A stretch of DNA of 64,000 nt from Candidatus Sumerlaeales bacterium (GTDB lineage Bacteria > Sumerlaeota > Sumerlaeia > Sumerlaeales > Sumerlaeaceae): assembly GCA_038243585.1 (NCBI GenBank), contig JBBSQY010000002.1, positions 1 through 64,000 on the forward strand, given 5' to 3'. The stretch's first letter is position 1; each line of letters starts with the position of its first letter. The position numbers were made by a program, and so were the translations under genes. Below, in pieces: positions 19,565 to 34,118 of this stretch. The notes beneath the pieces are model-generated. The model was not told the origin of the DNA. It saw only the letters and a program-made list of their open reading frames with translations, and searched no databases.

Positions 19565-19734
19565 AATTAAGGCGAACCTAAATTCCGTTTTATGGCGTCA
19601 CTTTGGGACGCGATCTTTCTTTTTACGTACTCCGGATTTCCTTTCAGGCTAACTTATTTAGCCCTTTCAAAGTCAGGAACTTGCCGACAATATGTTTTTT
19701 CTGTGCACGTGGGTCGACTTCTTTTTATGGATTC

Positions 19735-19760
19735 GGACGGCTCGGCGAGCCATCCTTACC
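19735..19760 (-). repeat. Intergenic degenerate GTAG-REP (family A)
   Basis: GGACGGCTCGGCGAGCCATCCTTACC, two mismatches to the copies inside dnaE2; a partial GGGACGGCTC follows. Confidence 0.75.
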
Positions 19761-29343: not shown

Positions 29344-32300
29344 TTAGGGGAATCTGTTATCGATTTTCTCCACGTTTAATGTCGGTGATCCAAGGCTCAT
29401 GTCTACAGAACCTTCCAAAAGATATGGGCCTGTGCCGAGGGTTCGGGGGGCGAAGCGTTCATAAACCCGTGGGAAGAGGACAGCCTCAAAGGTGGCCGTC
29501 TGGTCTTCCATGGTAAGCATTTTCATGGTGCGTCCTGAGTTGCGCGTTGCCAGCAGTTTGGCGGCGATGCACAGGCCGGCCATGCGGATGCGTTTTTTTT
29601 CGTGGAGACGGATGTCACGGCCGGGGATGACGCCAGATGGGATCCGTACAAGGTCCAGAGGATGCGCGCTGAGAGGAAAGCCCAGGGTTTCCATTTCGTA
29701 GGCGAAGAGTTCATGACGCGTGAAGGGTGCCGGCGGGCTGTGAGAGGGGAGAGCGGCAGGTTTTTCCCGAAAGGAAAAGGATTCAAAAAAGGCGTCGGCA
29801 GGAAAGAGACTGTCGGTGCTGGTGGAGGGGTGCTTTAGGCAGGTGGCCAGTTGCAGGAGCATCGCGGGGCGGATGTGGGCGGGGTCGTTTGATGAAGAGG
29901 AGGCGAGGGAGTCCAGGGTGCCGGCTTTGATGAGGGTGCGGCATTCTTCCGAGCCAAGAGCGGTGCGCTGGAGGAAGTTCTTGAGAGAAAGATAAGGTCC
30001 GCTTTTCTGGCGTTCATTAAGGATTTTTTCGCGAGAGTGAGTCGTGAGGTTCTGGATGGCGAGGAGGCCAACGCGGAGGTGGCCGAGAGGCGGACGGCTC
30101 GGCGAGCCGTCCCTACCAGTTGTGCCGGTGTAGTCGTATTGACTTTCGTTTACGCAGGGGCCTTGAATCTCTATTCCCCATCGGCGGGCTTCCTGGAGGT
30201 AGGCTCCGGCTCCGTAAAATCCCCCCTGATTTGTGAGAAGCCCTGCGAAGAATTCCGCCGGAAAATGGGCTTTGAGATAGGCGACCTGGTAGGATAGTAC
30301 GGCGAAGGCGGCGCTGTGGCCTTTGCAAAAACTGTAGCCAGCAAAGCTGGCAATCTGCCGCCAGATCTCCAGCGCGTGTATTTCTTCTATGCCATTAGCC
30401 ACCGCTCCTCCCAGGAAGTCTCCTGCGAGTTTTGCGATGTTGTCCTCAGAGCGGTGTTTGCCGCTCATGGCACGGCGCAACAGGTCCGCCTGTCCGAGCG
30501 TGAGCCCGGCAACCTTGTGCGCCACGCGCAATACGTCTTCCTGATAGACCATTACCCCGTGGGTATCCGGCAGGATTTTTTCCATGAGAGGCATAACGGT
30601 GACGGGTGTTTTTCTCATGCCGGGGGCGGCCTTGTGACGGGCTATGTATTCCTGCATCATGCCGCTTTCGGATACGCCGGGGCGGATGATACTGCTGGCG
30701 GCGACGACTTCTTCGTAACTTTTGCAGCGCAGCCGCTCAAACAAGGCGCGCATCCCGGGGCTTTCAATGTAGAAGCAGCCCATGGTGCGGCCTTCATGGA
30801 TCATGGTGTGGGTGGCGGCGTCTGCGGTAATATGGGCAAAGTTGAAGACCTGCTCTTCGATGGTGGCATCGGGGGAGAGGGCGGGGGTGGAATGGTTGGC
30901 GTCGGAGAAATTCTGCAGGACGCCGGCTAGGGCGACGGTGGTGCCGCGGCGGGTGCCGGCCATTTTCATGCGGACGGCTTCGCGCTGAAAGGTTTGGGTG
31001 TTGGCCGGGTGGGTCCGAGGGGCTGGCGGACGGCTCGGCGAGCCGTCCCTACACGGACCTGAATGCTGCTGGTTTTTTTCGGCTTGCGTGATGGCGTCTT
31101 TGAGCACGCCGAGAGAGCGATTGCCGAGGAGGTCAATTTTGATGAGGCCGAGGTCTTCGGCGCTGTACATATCGTATTGCGTGACGGCATAGCCTTTTGC
31201 GCTGCGGGTGAGAGGCACCCAGTCGGTGACAGGGCCGGGCGTGATAACTATGCCGCCGCAGTGGACAGAAAAATGGCGGGGGAAGCCGTGCAGGCGGGTG
31301 GCCAGTTGCAGGATGCCGTGCCAAGGCTCTGTCTTTGATAGATCATGGACTTTTCTGACAGGGCCGCGTCTTGGGTTATTGTCGTCATAGCTCTCTTCCA
31401 TGCGGTAGCCGGTTTCCCTCAGTTTAGAAAACCGGGTCACTTCGCTTTCAGAAACCCCATAGGCCTTGGCCACTTCGCGAAGTGACTGGCGGGAGCGAAA
31501 GGTCTGGATGGTGGAGATAAGGGCGACGTGATCCTGACCGAAAAACTCGAAACACCACTGGATGATTTCGTCCCGCTCCTTCCAGGAAAAGTCTATGTCG
31601 ATATCGGGCGGCACGCTCCGTTCCGGGTTGAGAAAACGTTCAAAGTAAAGGTCATGTTTTATGGGACAGACGTTGGTGATGCCGAGGGAATAGCTGACGA
31701 TGCTGTTGGCGGCGCTACCCCTTCCAACTATGAAAAAATTCCGTCTGCGGGCCTGGGCCACAATCCGCTCGACCAGCAGAAAATAGTCTGTAAAATGGTT
31801 GCTGTCGATGACTCCGAGTTCGTAGTCGGCGCGCTGGATAACTTCAGGAGGTAATGGATCGCCGTAGCGCCAGACGAGGCCTTTGTACACCAGGTCGCGC
31901 AGCATTTTCGCGGGCGCGATGGGGGTGTCCGTCAGACGGGGAAATTTCCAGATGCCGAGGGGCAGTTCGCAATGGCACTGGTCGGCGATATGGCAGGTGT
32001 TATCAAAAGCAAGAGCCAGGGCGTTATGCAGGTGGTCGGTATCATCGTGGACTTGATGCGCGTCCAGTCCGAAAAACGCGCGAATGGCATCCGGGTGCTG
32101 GAAATGCTGGGCCGGATCCATACGATCTTTGGGGGCGATATGATCTACGGTCGCCAGATGGCGCATAGCCTGAAGTAGTGTGTGAAAGGGAACGTCTTTC
32201 GGGGTTGCCAGTTTTACGTCGCAGGTAATAACCATGGGGAGGGCCAGGCGCAGGGCACATTCATAGGTCGCGCGGTTCTGGAGACGTCGCCTGCGAGAGG

Positions 32301-32910
32301 GGATAAGGACGGCATAGGGCGGAGAAACGGATGCCGGACCGGCGGCCATGGCCGTAAGGGTTTCCATGGAATCTGTAAGGGTTATGATGTTGAGAGAAAG
32401 ATGGCGGAGTTCCCGGTAAAGATCAAACTCGCTGTCCAGCATCCGCCTGGTGGCTATGCGGGATATCTCTGAGTAGCCTTCGAAATTTTTGGCCAGCAAG
32501 ATGGCGCGCTGGGCAGGATCGCCGTGGCAAAGGGCGGGGGATGCAGACTGAAATTCTGCTTTCCATCCAGTGCTGTTTTCTCCGGGGGAGGTTGATTGGC
32601 CGTAATCATCATGCTGCGTTTCATCCAGCAGGGGAGGGATTCCACCTACGCTTTTCCTGTTGCGCAAAAGAGCTCGCTCTGCCGGATAGGGCTGGCGAAT
32701 TTCAGCGCCGATGATTGGTTGAATGCCCGCCTCAGTGGCGGCTTTAATAAATTCTATCACGCCGCTCATGCAGTTTGTGTCTGTGATGGCGACGGCTTTA
32801 GCGCCAGCGTCGACGGCCGCTGCGATTATGTCGGCGGGTGATAACGTGCTGTCGAGAAAGCTGTAATAGCTATGAACGTGCAGGTGAACGAATGACGCGG
32901 GGGGTGTCAT
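29344..32910 (-). CDS. dnaE2: Error-prone-type DNA polymerase III alpha subunit with multiple insertions
   Basis: FVHLHVHS, GRGSAANS, FERFLNPER, PDIDIDF, KIDLLG, YSFCKGHS, OB fold; coupled to the dinB-like gene. Confidence 0.9.
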   Translation of the reverse strand: MTPPASFVHLHVHSYYSFLDSTLSPADIIAAAVDAGAKAVAITDTNCMSGVIEFIKAATEAGIQPIIGAEIRQPYPAERALLRNRKSVGGIPPLLDETQHDDYGQSTSPGENSTGWKAEFQSASPALCHGDPAQRAILLAKNFEGYSEISRIATRRMLDSEFDLYRELRHLSLNIITLTDSMETLTAMAAGPASVSPPYAVLIPSRRRRLQNRATYECALRLALPMVITCDVKLATPKDVPFHTLLQAMRHLATVDHIAPKDRMDPAQHFQHPDAIRAFFGLDAHQVHDDTDHLHNALALAFDNTCHIADQCHCELPLGIWKFPRLTDTPIAPAKMLRDLVYKGLVWRYGDPLPPEVIQRADYELGVIDSNHFTDYFLLVERIVAQARRRNFFIVGRGSAANSIVSYSLGITNVCPIKHDLYFERFLNPERSVPPDIDIDFSWKERDEIIQWCFEFFGQDHVALISTIQTFRSRQSLREVAKAYGVSESEVTRFSKLRETGYRMEESYDDNNPRRGPVRKVHDLSKTEPWHGILQLATRLHGFPRHFSVHCGGIVITPGPVTDWVPLTRSAKGYAVTQYDMYSAEDLGLIKIDLLGNRSLGVLKDAITQAEKNQQHSGPCRDGSPSRPPAPRTHPANTQTFQREAVRMKMAGTRRGTTVALAGVLQNFSDANHSTPALSPDATIEEQVFNFAHITADAATHTMIHEGRTMGCFYIESPGMRALFERLRCKSYEEVVAASSIIRPGVSESGMMQEYIARHKAAPGMRKTPVTVMPLMEKILPDTHGVMVYQEDVLRVAHKVAGLTLGQADLLRRAMSGKHRSEDNIAKLAGDFLGGAVANGIEEIHALEIWRQIASFAGYSFCKGHSAAFAVLSYQVAYLKAHFPAEFFAGLLTNQGGFYGAGAYLQEARRWGIEIQGPCVNESQYDYTGTTGRDGSPSRPPLGHLRVGLLAIQNLTTHSREKILNERQKSGPYLSLKNFLQRTALGSEECRTLIKAGTLDSLASSSSNDPAHIRPAMLLQLATCLKHPSTSTDSLFPADAFFESFSFREKPAALPSHSPPAPFTRHELFAYEMETLGFPLSAHPLDLVRIPSGVIPGRDIRLHEKKRIRMAGLCIAAKLLATRNSGRTMKMLTMEDQTATFEAVLFPRVYERFAPRTLGTGPYLLEGSVDMSLGSPTLNVEKIDNRFP
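30089..30116 (-). repeat. GTAG-REP (family A) in frame within dnaE2, copy 1
   Basis: Coding strand GTAGGGACGGCTCGCCGAGCCGTCCGCC, encoding RDGSPSRPP. Confidence 0.9.
31025..31052 (-). repeat. GTAG-REP (family A) in frame within dnaE2, copy 2
   Basis: 28 bp identical to copy 1, in the same reading frame. Confidence 0.9.
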
Positions 32911-34118
32911 AGGAAACTGTCAGAGGAGGGATTCATTTTAAACTTTTTGCCGTTGGATTTATCGACGCCTCCGGCGATGAGGATTGACGCGAAGCCATGT
33001 TTTTCCCGCACCTCGTCAATGGCCTGGTACAGGCGACTGGTCCGGCGTTGTTTCTGCTCCTGGAAAAGATCGTACTGGCTATCGTCCTGCTGGTGGAGGA
33101 CGGCGGTGAGATGGATCGATCGAACACGGACGCGGCGGCAAAACGCGTGAACGGCGGCGCGGCGGACGGCGCCGATAAGGTCGTTATCGCGATCGGAGGG
33201 AGAGAAAATCCGCAGGCGGCGGGCGCAGTGATGGCCGTCGGAATAGACCAGATCGATCCGGGCCGAACAGCAGCGTGCTCCGCAGTCGCGGAGTTTCCAG
33301 GCAAGGCGCTGGGCAAGCAGCGCGGCGCCCGCTTCAATCTCATCGATCCTGCTGCTGTCGCTGGGGAAGATGTGGTTATACTGGAGAGTTTCAGCGATGG
33401 GGGTGGCCTTTACCGATTCATGAAAGATGCCCTGGGCCCGCTGCCACAGGGCATTGCCGATGCTCGGGCCATAGATGCGGCGCAGGGATTCATCGCCCAG
33501 GTGGACGAGCTGACCTATGCGCCGAATGCCGAATTCGCGAAGTTCCAGGCGGGCGTTTTTGCCGATGCCGGGGAGTAGCCCTACAGAAACGGGACCAAGG
33601 AACTCTGATTCGCAGCCAGAGAGAATCCAGATAGCGCGGCCGGGCTTGGCGACACGAGTAGCGACTTTGGCAGTAAGTTTGTTGGAGGCAATGCCAAAGG
33701 ACACGGGAAGCCCGACTTCCTGGTCAATCCGGCGGGCGAGTCGGCTCATCCATACCGTCGGGTGAGATTGCATCCATCGTTCGCAGCCGGTCAGATCCAG
33801 GAAAAATCCATCCATTTTGTCGGCCTCGACCACCGGGGCGTGATCACGGAGAAAATCAAGCAGGCGTCGGGAAGCTTTTTCATATTCCAGAAGATTCGGG
33901 GTCAGGAATATGGCCTTCTCCGCCCGGCGACGGGCGGCAGGCAGGGGCATTCCAGCGCGAACGCCCAAGGCGCGGGCCTCGTAAGATGCGCAGGCGACCA
34001 AGCCCCGGTCTGGGGTCTGGGTGCTGATGACAATGATCCTGCCTGCGAGCTGGCTATTGAGAGCACGTTCTACCGCAACGGCAAAGGCATCCACATCTAT
34101 GTAGGTGATGAGAGACAT
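32907..34118 (-). CDS. Y-family DNA polymerase (DinB-like; probably an ImuB-type inactive accessory)
   Basis: YIDVDAF, CASYEARALGVRAGMP, GIASNKLTAKVA..AKP, LPGIG, QYDLF clamp motif; catalytic DE replaced by DG. Confidence 0.88.
   Translation of the reverse strand: MSLITYIDVDAFAVAVERALNSQLAGRIIVISTQTPDRGLVACASYEARALGVRAGMPLPAARRRAEKAIFLTPNLLEYEKASRRLLDFLRDHAPVVEADKMDGFFLDLTGCERWMQSHPTVWMSRLARRIDQEVGLPVSFGIASNKLTAKVATRVAKPGRAIWILSGCESEFLGPVSVGLLPGIGKNARLELREFGIRRIGQLVHLGDESLRRIYGPSIGNALWQRAQGIFHESVKATPIAETLQYNHIFPSDSSRIDEIEAGAALLAQRLAWKLRDCGARCCSARIDLVYSDGHHCARRLRIFSPSDRDNDLIGAVRRAAVHAFCRRVRVRSIHLTAVLHQQDDSQYDLFQEQKQRRTSRLYQAIDEVREKHGFASILIAGGVDKSNGKKFKMNPSSDSFL

What the first reader, a model, noticed from the sequence alone, without database searches (positions are those of the whole stretch)
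30089..31052. Two identical REP palindromes translated in frame inside DnaE2
Seen: the 28-mer GTAGGGACGGCTCGCCGAGCCGTCCGCC occurs twice in the dnaE2 coding strand, in the same frame, giving RDGSPSRPP twice. A degenerate copy lies between genes at 19735. Known: GTAG plus a palindrome is the hallmark of RAYT-mobilised REPs, which are normally extragenic; coding insertions are known mainly from Rickettsia RPEs. Inference: REPs are invading a polymerase gene at tolerant loops (just after the KIDLLG catalytic strand, and before the LRVGL segment), adding new peptide and mRNA hairpins that could tune SOS-polymerase expression.
Basis: partly seen in the sequence, partly recalled or inferred. Interest (0 to 1): 0.85.

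Follow-up and report, generated by a model that had tools for sequence, protein, structure and literature searches.

The report
Mobile REP hairpins translated inside polymerase gene
Two copies of a small mobile DNA palindrome (a REP element, whose own transposase gene lies elsewhere in this genome) sit in frame in variable loops of a DnaE-type polymerase gene and of several housekeeping genes, which is a real but already published kind of event.

Summary
The 28-mer occurs twice (30089-30116, 31025-31052, minus strand), in the same phase of a 1188-aa DnaE-family ORF, giving RDGSPSRPP twice.

It belongs to a genome-wide GTAG-type REP family, consensus GGTAGGGATGGCTCGCCGAGCCGTCCG (27 nt, 9 codons). 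There are 67 loci at 3 or fewer mismatches. None was found in 30 relatives, two of them in the same genus.

A REP-associated tyrosine transposase (RAYT, NCBIfam NF047646 above cut-off) lies on contig C27, flanked on both sides by this REP.

Eleven copies are internal to ORFs of nine genes: the DnaE-like gene (2), MutS, CysS, a T2SS-type ATPase (2), UDP-GlcNAc 2-epimerase, a GT2 glycosyltransferase and three others. Where same-genus orthologues align cleanly, the copy is an extra loop. In the DnaE-like gene and CysS it occupies an already hypervariable loop with no net gain in length.

Intragenic GTAG REPs, including one in dnaE2 of the verrucomicrobium Opitutus terrae, were published in 2013 (PMC3733652). 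This scan has also noted the same kind of event on other genomes. It is therefore a new member of a known kind.

The idea that the hairpins tune polymerase expression has no support here. The name DnaE2 is not met by the NCBIfam cut-off, though the gene is paired with a Y-family polymerase gene.

The parts
31025..31052 (-). REP1 copy, site 1. It is translated as (C)RDGSPSRPP, aa 620-629, in the hypervariable linker between the DNA_pol3_alpha domain (aa 336-596) and the finger domain (aa 689-840).
   Evidence: Orthologues have unrelated sequence of similar length here.
30089..30117 (-). REP1 copy, site 2 (the 27-nt unit GGTAGGG...CCG plus CC). It is translated as GRDGSPSRPP, aa 932-941, inside the HHH_6 domain match (aa 912-1005).
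   Evidence: In the alignment to Thermus aquaticus Pol III alpha (2hpi) these residues face a 10-residue gap at a hairpin turn, near Taq residues 885/886.
29344..32910 (-). DnaE-family polymerase gene, 1188 aa, one of three DnaE paralogues in this genome.
   Evidence: Pfam. TIGR00594 scores 619 against a cut-off of 434, and NF004225 scores 539 against 939. Paralogues. The acidic residues D436, D438 and D593 are invariant in 11 orthologues.
32907..34118 (-). Y-family polymerase-like gene, 403 aa, overlapping the start of the DnaE-like gene by 4 nt. The pair is a two-gene cassette.
   Evidence: Pfam IMS, IMS_C and IMS_HHH_1. The DNA polymerase IV models are hit below their cut-offs. The same gene lies directly upstream of the DnaE orthologue in 5 relatives.
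19734..19759 (-). Intergenic REP1 copy (GTAAGGATGGCTCGCCGAGCCGTCCG) between convergent ORFs.

Best explanation
The two 28-mers are copies of a GTAG-type repetitive extragenic palindrome, called REP1 here. Its conserved unit is 27 nt, GGTAGGGA(T/C)GGCTCGCCGAGCCGTCCG, which folds as a 9-bp stem with a 3-nt loop. Its cognate REP-associated tyrosine transposase (RAYT, an HUH/Y1 enzyme) is encoded on contig C27 of the same genome, flanked by REP1 copies. REP1 multiplied in this species lineage. Most surviving copies are intergenic, but a minority landed inside genes. The unit is 9 codons long and has a stop codon (the TAG of GTAG) in only one of its six reading frames. An insertion therefore usually adds nine Gly/Ser/Pro/Arg-rich residues without breaking the frame. 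Such copies persist only where the protein tolerates an extra or replaced surface loop. In the DnaE-like polymerase those places are the hypervariable linker after the palm and a hairpin turn in the HhH region. Shown here: family membership, copy number, the RAYT arrangement, the in-frame positions, absence from relatives, and variable-loop locations. Inferred: that the RAYT moved the copies, that they are translated, and that they are near-neutral passengers with no dedicated function in polymerase expression.
For: Copy number. There are 86 hits at 5 or fewer mismatches against 0 in the reversed genome. There are 68 hits, or 67 loci, at 3 or fewer mismatches against 0 in each of 30 relatives, including 2 same-genus genomes.

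Element shape. Information content is high from position -1 to +26 and then drops, which gives a 27-nt unit with a GTAG foot. It folds as a 9-bp hairpin.

Location. Of the 67 loci, 45 are intergenic, 11 are internal to ORFs, 5 lie in the first 60 codons of the longest ORF, 5 supply an ORF's TAG stop, and 1 overlaps a 5' end. My own ORF caller labels 87.5% of the genome as coding, so copies are strongly depleted in genes.

RAYT. G000:C27:22412-22897 (-), 161 aa, scores 97.9 bits on NF047646 against a cut-off of 80. It has DHIH and YIIQNP motifs. One REP1 copy overlaps its stop codon, one lies 141 nt upstream, and more lie downstream. A 45%-identical RAYT in an unrelated MAG contig (L071) lies between two exact REP1 copies.

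Co-occurrence. No relative has a RAYT match better than E 2.6e-13. Among 10 REP1-bearing genomes of other phyla, 6 have a homologue at E<=1e-10 and 5 of these at E<=1e-30.

Other in-frame copies. They lie between or inside Pfam domains of MutS, CysS, a T2SSE ATPase, Epimerase_2 and GT2. The extra length against same-genus orthologues is: MutS +9 aa, epimerase +17, GT2 +16, a 566-aa membrane protein +17, and ArgS +7 for a degenerate copy.

Assembly. A 1648-nt Logan contig of run X1 covers both copies with 0 differences. Pieces of 151 nt from runs X2 and X3, from roughly 96-98% similar strains, cross site 1 and site 2 without gaps.

Published precedent. PMC3733652.
Against: In the DnaE-like gene and in CysS the copy gives no net gain in length over the same-genus orthologue G002. 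A simple cut-free insertion of 27 nt is therefore not demonstrated at these sites: either a deletion accompanied it or the loop was already in flux.

No empty-site allele was seen, so the insertion events are inferred, not observed.

REP1 copies here are singletons or direct tandem arrays. Only 1 of 18 multi-copy clusters is inverted. This differs from the inverted doublets (REPINs, BIMEs) that are thought to be the mobile unit.

Only 3 of 10 RAYT-homologue loci in other genomes have a REP1-like copy within 250 nt at 4 or fewer mismatches.

Translation of the inserts and activity of the polymerase are not tested. X1 may be the source sample, so it is not independent support.
Confidence: 0.85

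Rival explanations
1. The intragenic hairpins are selected regulators. As mRNA or DNA structures they slow translation, set mRNA stability, or pause replication or transcription, and so tune the level of a mutagenic polymerase.
For: Both copies in this gene are the perfect-palindrome C variant and fold as 9-bp GC-rich stems. The family consensus keeps a T-G pair that pairs only on the GTAG strand. Di Nocera et al. read this as a hint of RNA-level function (passage). The paper also notes that REP-tagged genes often act in replication and repair.
Against: The same element sits in frame in CysS, MutS, an epimerase, a glycosyltransferase and a secretion ATPase, in both orientations. Fold energies of the 68-nt contexts are not unusual against shuffles (z -1.5; 16 and 11 of 200 shuffles fold as well). 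Orthologues in 30 relatives lack the element. No expression data could be obtained.
Confidence: 0.07
2. The copies entered genes without the RAYT. Instead they came by recombination, gene conversion or template switching between dispersed REP1 copies, replacing pre-existing loop DNA of similar length.
For: There is no net length gain in the DnaE-like gene or in CysS against G002. The two copies in this gene share an identical 28-mer, including the 3' CC, that occurs only once elsewhere in the genome. Direct tandem arrays with multiplied spacers show that local duplication is active.
Against: Flanks of the in-gene copies share no extended homology with other copies: information content falls to about 0 outside the 27-nt unit. 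Clean additions of +9, or about twice that for doublets, in MutS, the epimerase and GT2 fit insertion.
Confidence: 0.08
3. RDGSPSRPP is a selected peptide motif (a linker or a binding site), and the nucleotide identity is secondary.
For: Six of the 11 internal copies use this one frame.
Against: The same DNA is read in three different frames inside genes. It is mostly intergenic and supplies stop codons in a fourth frame. Orthologues lack the peptide.
Confidence: 0.02
4. Assembly or binning artefact: repeat-induced chimeric joins placed REP copies inside the gene.
For: The genome is a 99-contig draft, 89.7% complete. Logan contigs of other runs often break at the REP.
Against: One 1648-nt contig spans both copies with 0 differences. 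Short pieces from two other runs cross each site. The reading frame and flanking homology to orthologues are intact on both sides.
Confidence: 0.01

Closest known systems
Intragenic GTAG-tagged REPs (Di Nocera, De Gregorio, Rocco 2013, BMC Genomics 14:522, PMC3733652; passages and Additional file 3 read)
   Same: GTAG foot plus a short GC-rich stem-loop. Most copies are intergenic and a minority are in frame inside known genes, single units encoding about 7-9 aa. Many hosts are replication or repair genes. The paper lists dnaE2 of Opitutus terrae (Oter_4053, aa 934-971 of 1116), dnaE of Rickettsia conorii and tRNA synthetases. It also describes copies overlapping ORF ends and RAYT genes.
   Different: The stem sequence differs: none of the three REP1-encoded peptides searched (SPSRP, GEPSLP, SASRPY) appears in the four supplementary files held as text, Additional file 3 among them. 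The host is an uncultured lineage. Here there are two single copies in one polymerase gene. The arrays are direct rather than inverted dimers.
REP/REPIN-RAYT systems (E. coli TnpA-REP; Nunvar 2010 PMC2817692 and Bertels and Rainey 2011 PMC3116915, seen as search listing and abstract only; Quentin 2018 PMC6006769, passages read)
   Same: A single-copy HUH/Y1 enzyme flanked by the repeat it is thought to act on. The repeat has a GTAG guide tetranucleotide. The taxonomic distribution is patchy.
   Different: REPINs are inverted doublets, whereas REP1 here is mostly single or in direct tandem. RAYT activity on REP1 is untested. The RAYT subclass was not assigned.
Rickettsia palindromic elements (RPEs; recalled, and mentioned in PMC3733652 passages)
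   Same: Palindromic repeats inserted in frame in protein-coding genes, tolerated at surface positions.
   Different: RPE-1 is much longer and has no known transposase. According to PMC3733652, the Rickettsia REP-size elements are CGTC-type, not GTAG-type.
imuB-dnaE2 (imuC) mutagenesis cassettes (recalled)
   Same: A DnaE paralogue directly downstream of a Y-family polymerase-like gene, conserved as a pair in relatives.
   Different: The NF004225 cut-off is not met. No ImuA-like gene was recognised. LexA control was not examined.

Membership tests
GTAG-type REP | Conserved 5' GTAG tetranucleotide next to the stem | tested here: met
   Information content is 1.5-1.9 bits at G-GTAG across 67 loci.
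GTAG-type REP | Short (20-40 bp) imperfect palindrome able to form a stem-loop | tested here: met
   A 27-nt unit with a 9-bp stem and a 3-nt loop. The consensus has one T-G pair.
GTAG-type REP | High copy number, dispersed over the genome | tested here: met
   67 loci at 3 or fewer mismatches and 84 at 5 or fewer, in 61 clusters on many contigs. The reversed-genome control gave 0.
GTAG-type REP | Predominantly extragenic | tested here: met
   45 of 67 loci are intergenic, although my crude ORF caller marks 87.5% of the genome as coding.
GTAG-type REP | A RAYT gene flanked by copies of the same REP | tested here: met
   The RAYT at C27:22412-22897 has REP1 at its stop codon, another 141 nt upstream, and three more within 270 nt downstream.
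REPIN / BIME organisation | Copies paired in inverted orientation | tested here: not met
   17 of 18 multi-copy clusters are all-direct and 43 clusters are singletons.
RAYT (NCBIfam NF047646) | Score above the curated cut-off | tested here: met
   97.9 bits against a cut-off of 80. Pfam Y1_Tnp scores only 19.4 against 23, which is why one search missed it.
RAYT (NCBIfam NF047646) | HUH motif and catalytic Tyr motif | tested here: met
   PDHIHGL and ADYIIQNP are present in the 161-aa ORF. Reading these as the catalytic motifs is from recall and from Table 1 of PMC6006769.
RAYT (NCBIfam NF047646) | Single copy per REP family | tested here: met
   Only one close copy exists. The second RAYT, on C4, is 32% identical and carries its own REP2.
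RAYT (NCBIfam NF047646) | Cleaves or binds its REP as single-stranded DNA | not testable with these tools
   This needs biochemistry.
DnaE2 / ImuC error-prone polymerase | NCBIfam NF004225 above cut-off | tested here: not met
   539 bits against a cut-off of 939. None of the three DnaE paralogues reaches it.
DnaE2 / ImuC error-prone polymerase | Operon with an ImuB-like Y-family gene | tested here: inconclusive
   The Y-family gene overlaps by 4 nt and is conserved upstream in 5 relatives. It has MDG where I recall the catalytic (S/I)DE motif, but whether it is ImuB or DinB is not settled.
DnaE2 / ImuC error-prone polymerase | ImuA partner and LexA/SOS control | not tested
   The upstream 96-aa ORF has no NCBIfam hit. 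No operator search was done.
Rickettsia palindromic elements | In-frame palindromic insert in conserved genes | tested here: met
Rickettsia palindromic elements | Sequence or size class of RPEs (RPE-1 about 100-150 bp; CGTC-type for the short ones) | tested here: not met
   REP1 is 27 nt and GTAG-type. The RPE classes are taken from PMC3733652 passages and from recall.

The most novel reading that the evidence does not exclude
REP1 is a frame-neutral REP: exactly 9 codons, with a stop in only one of six frames. It has moved between phyla together with its RAYT. The identical 25-mer occurs in Verrucomicrobiota, Lentisphaerota, Kiritimatiellota, Planctomycetota, Acidobacteriota and others, while the RAYTs are only 38-52% identical. 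On this reading it acts as a recurrent source of new 9-residue loops in essential proteins, with a real bias towards replication and repair genes that affects mutagenesis.
Probability: 0.1. Interest if true: 0.55.

Novelty: new member of a known kind. Interest (0 to 1): 0.3.

Why it matters
It shows, in an uncultured lineage, that a RAYT-linked REP can sit in essential genes (a DnaE-type polymerase, MutS, CysS) without breaking them. The case includes a clear cognate transposase and sister genomes free of the element, which makes it a useful natural data set for loop tolerance and REP dynamics. It does not open a new question. The phenomenon, its occurrence in Verrucomicrobia and in dnaE2, and its over-representation in replication and repair genes were all published in 2013.

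Tried and rejected
Structure prediction of the polymerase from alignment A1 was not accepted by the tool. The inserts were mapped by sequence alignment to 2hpi only.

The Pfam PF01797 search of the genome found 7 Y1 genes, none flanked by REP1. Four are IS200-like with their own hairpins and one is a RAYT with a different REP. The cognate RAYT was missed by that model and found only through L071.

The metagenome scan with the polymerase found no relative above 61% identity, so there is no strain-level comparison.

Laying contigs of 4 runs showed no deletion or empty-site allele. No RNA holder was listed.

The 5-mismatch hit in Mfd was rejected as a REP copy, because sister genomes have a homologous GNAPIP/GDVPLP loop.

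The heparinase-like gene had no orthologue in 6 relatives, so its copy could not be judged.

Copies in the first 60 codons of five longest ORFs probably lie upstream of the true starts. One example lies before the N_methyl motif of a GspH-like protein.

A 17-nt guess for the FKIQNS repeat in G009's orthologue gave only 4 hits. It is a simple AT-rich tandem repeat, not a REP.

The Rfam search of the REP1-adjacent leader found nothing above gathering score.

The Pfam scan of 77 open frames from 51 of 80 REP1 loci of other genomes, with only 33-aa flanks, gave one clear in-gene case (L102, tRNA_Me_trans, E 1.6e-9) and one weak case (L104). The sensitivity is too low for a rate.

One search failed on wrong coordinates and was redone.

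The frame bias among internal copies (6, 3 and 2 in three frames, none in the two Arg-rich frames) is suggestive only: (3/5)^11 before correction for post-hoc choice.
Full report
**1. The observation**

The 28-mer GTAGGGACGGCTCGCCGAGCCGTCCGCC matches exactly at 30089-30116 and 31025-31052, both on the minus strand. No shuffle of the window gave a match. Both copies lie in ORF 29344..32910 (-), 1188 aa. They are in the same codon phase and are translated as C-RDGSPSRPP-A (aa 620-629) and G-RDGSPSRPP-L (aa 932-941).

The ORF has the PHP, DNA_pol3_alpha (336-596), finger (689-840) and HHH_6 (912-1005) domains.

**2. What the repeat is**

The genome that holds the window is G000: 3.43 Mb, 99 contigs, 52.5% G+C, 89.7% complete.

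- The consensus GTAGGGATGGCTCGCCGAGCCGTCCG has 86 hits at 5 or fewer mismatches (25 of them exact), against 0 in the reversed genome.
- At 3 or fewer mismatches there are 68 hits, which make 67 loci.
- Information content is high from the G before GTAG to the last G and then falls to about zero. The conserved unit is therefore 27 nt, or nine codons.
- It folds as a 9-bp stem with a 3-nt loop. The commoner T variant has one T-G pair. The two copies in the polymerase are the perfect C variant.
- Only one of the six reading frames has a stop, the TAG of GTAG.

Location was judged with a crude ORF caller of my own (hexamer log-odds on the longest ORFs; it labels 87.5% of the genome as coding). The 67 loci fall as follows:

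| Location | Loci |
|---|---|
| Intergenic, flanking ORFs in the same direction | 25 |
| Intergenic, flanking ORFs divergent | 12 |
| Intergenic, flanking ORFs convergent | 8 |
| Internal to ORFs | 11 |
| In the first 60 codons of a longest ORF (probably upstream of the true start) | 5 |
| Supplying an ORF's TAG stop | 5 |
| Overlapping a 5' end | 1 |

The 84 non-redundant copies at 5 or fewer mismatches form 61 clusters. Of these, 43 are singletons, 17 are direct tandem arrays and 1 is an inverted pair.

**3. The transposase**

A Pfam Y1_Tnp search found seven genes, none next to REP1. Four are IS200-like with their own subterminal hairpins. One, on contig C4, is a RAYT flanked by five copies of a different, non-expanded palindrome.

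The cognate gene was found indirectly.

- The exact REP1 25-mer occurs in more than 119 loci of the species-representative genome collection.
- In one of them (L071) two copies bracket a 240-aa ORF that scores 81.2 bits on NF047646 against a cut-off of 80.
- Its 45%-identical homologue in G000 is C27:22412-22897 (-), 161 aa. It scores 97.9 bits on NF047646 against 80, and has DHIH and YIIQNP motifs.
- One REP1 copy supplies its stop codon, another lies 141 nt upstream, and three more lie within 270 nt downstream, one of them inverted.

**4. Distribution**

None of 30 relatives has a REP1 copy at 3 or fewer mismatches. They include 2 genomes of the same genus and 10 of the same family. None has a RAYT match better than E 2.6e-13.

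The 80 listed loci come from these groups (my tally of the record titles):

| Taxon label | Loci |
|---|---|
| Verrucomicrobiota | 38 |
| Lentisphaerae | 13 |
| Kiritimatiellales | 6 |
| Planctomycetes | 6 |
| Acidobacteriota | 6 |
| Other or unclassified | 11 |

Of 10 such genomes tested, 6 have a homologue of the C27 RAYT at E<=1e-10, with 38-52% identity. At 3 of the 10 homologue loci, a REP1 variant with paired, stem-preserving changes lies within 250 nt. This patchy picture fits what Quentin et al. 2018 report for RAYTs (PMC6006769, passages).

**5. The copies inside genes**

Pfam places the internal copies between or inside the domains of ordinary genes.

| Gene | Position of the copy |
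|---|---|
| MutS | aa 696, between domains IV and V |
| CysS | aa 336, between the catalytic and DALR domains |
| T2SSE-type ATPase | two copies, aa 332-354 |
| UDP-GlcNAc 2-epimerase | aa 211, with a degenerate second copy |
| GT2 glycosyltransferase | aa 82 |
| Heparinase-like protein | aa 337 |
| 566-aa membrane protein | aa 309 |
| HlyD-like protein | in its C-terminal tail |

Three frames are used: RDGSPSRP, DGSASHPY and GRLGEPSLP.

Length against orthologues:

- MutS is +9 aa against G001, G007 and G011, and +4 against G002.
- The epimerase is +17.
- GT2 is +16.
- The membrane protein is about +17.
- ArgS is +7, for a degenerate 5-mismatch copy.
- In the ATPase, the segment between two CxxC motifs is 34 aa against 14 in G005.
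- In CysS there is no net gain: the linker has the same length in G002 but an unrelated sequence.

A 5-mismatch hit in Mfd is not an insertion.

**6. The two sites in the polymerase**

Site 1 lies in a linker after the conserved KIDLLGNRSLGVLKDA strand. That linker is unalignable and variable in length among 11 orthologues, and it is not aligned to solved Pol III alpha structures.

Site 2 lies at a turn that faces a 10-residue gap in Thermus aquaticus Pol III alpha (2hpi), near residues 885/886. It is variable in all family members.

The same-genus orthologue (G002, 66% identity) has loops of similar or greater length there, with no palindrome. Insertion at these two sites is therefore inferred from family membership and species specificity, not from a clean gap.

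D436, D438 and D593 are invariant among the 11 sequences. Identifying them with the catalytic acidic residues is from recall. The gene looks intact.

A 1648-nt contig of run X1, which may be the source sample, covers both copies without a difference. Pieces of 151 nt from two other runs, with 5 and 3 differences, cross site 1 and site 2 without gaps. No deletion was reported.

**7. Is it DnaE2?**

The genome has three DnaE-family ORFs, and none reaches the NF004225 cut-off.

The window's copy is the one paired with a Y-family polymerase-like gene, which overlaps it by 4 nt. The pair is conserved in 5 relatives. The Y-family protein reads MDG where I recall the catalytic (S/I)DE motif.

A mutagenesis-cassette role is plausible but rests on context alone.

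**8. Comparison with what is known**

Di Nocera, De Gregorio and Rocco 2013 (PMC3733652; passages and Additional file 3 read) describe the following:

- GTAG and CGTC REP super-families;
- REPs inside genes of several species, most of them in Opitutus terrae (70 occurrences of the species name in Additional file 3);
- explicitly dnaE2 (Oter_4053, aa 934-971 of 1116) and Rickettsia conorii dnaE;
- copies that overlap ORF ends and RAYT genes;
- G-T pairs in stems.

None of the three REP1-encoded peptides searched (SPSRP, GEPSLP, SASRPY) is in the four supplementary files held as text, which include their table of intragenic REPs. REP1 is thus another family of a described kind.

The scan's own notes list the same kind of event on other genomes, and these agree.

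**9. Verdict**

The feature is real. The regulatory extension is unsupported and the phenomenon is already in print. It is a new member of a known kind, of modest interest.

Noticed in passing
G000:C4:37905-38881 (locus L005): A second RAYT (243-aa ORF, NF047646 100.8 bits against a cut-off of 80) has five copies of a different palindrome, GGGAGCGCGGGCGTCCCCGCCCGC, around it. One copy is in frame at its own C-terminus and one lies within its 5' extension. This REP2 has essentially no copies elsewhere: two further hits on other contigs at 2-4 mismatches.
   Followed up: partly
G000 contigs C62, C28, C16, C67 (loci L001-L004): Four IS200/IS605-type Y1 transposase genes, each with its own flanking 8-9-bp hairpins (for example TACCAG-CCTGGGCC...GGCCCAGG). 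These hairpins are low-copy in the genome.
   Followed up: partly
G000: C15:49251, C17:34433, C20:26480, C33:11127, C47:12360, C66:2548: At six loci a REP1 copy is followed by a conserved leader of about 110 nt (...AAAATCTCATTTAAGTACCCATGCGGGAATTCCCC...) and then a paralogous ORF starting M-x-T-S-P-E-R. No Rfam family reaches its gathering score. The nature of the leader is unknown.
   Followed up: partly
G000: C20:9347, C33:32836, C38:6239, C40:29514, C67:8010 and C27:22412: Five ORFs and the REP1-associated RAYT gene itself end on the TAG of a REP1 GTAG. The repeat therefore defines their present C-termini.
   Followed up: partly
Loci L063-L142; L220-L222: The identical 25-nt REP1 occurs in genomes labelled as at least six phyla, while the associated RAYTs are only 38-52% identical. 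Next to some RAYT homologues the stem carries paired compensatory changes (GGACCGCTCG/CGAGCGGTCC; GGACGCCTCG/CGAGGCGTCC).
   Followed up: partly
Window 32907-34118 and 29344-32910; G000:C13:67630-70845; G000:C53:14223-17414: There are three DnaE-family paralogues in one genome. Only the window's copy is paired with a Y-family polymerase-like gene, and that pair is conserved in 5 relatives.
   Followed up: partly
L029 (G009:C30), L026, L027: Orthologues of the DnaE-like gene in relatives carry other large lineage-specific, low-complexity inserts, with open frames up to 1588 aa. In G009 these include an (AAAATTC)n-type repeat read as FKIQNS at two places.
   Followed up: partly
L252 (G001:C6) against L015 (G000:C58): At the GT2 site where G000 has the REP1-encoded SASHPYP, the same-genus genome G001, which has no REP1 copies, reads SHPHPT. 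This could be chance or a decayed older copy.
   Followed up: no
L102 (a Verrucomicrobiia MAG contig): An exact REP1 copy lies in an open frame whose upstream 32 residues match the tRNA_Me_trans (MnmA) HUP domain (E 1.6e-9). This is an in-gene REP1 copy in another genome.
   Followed up: no
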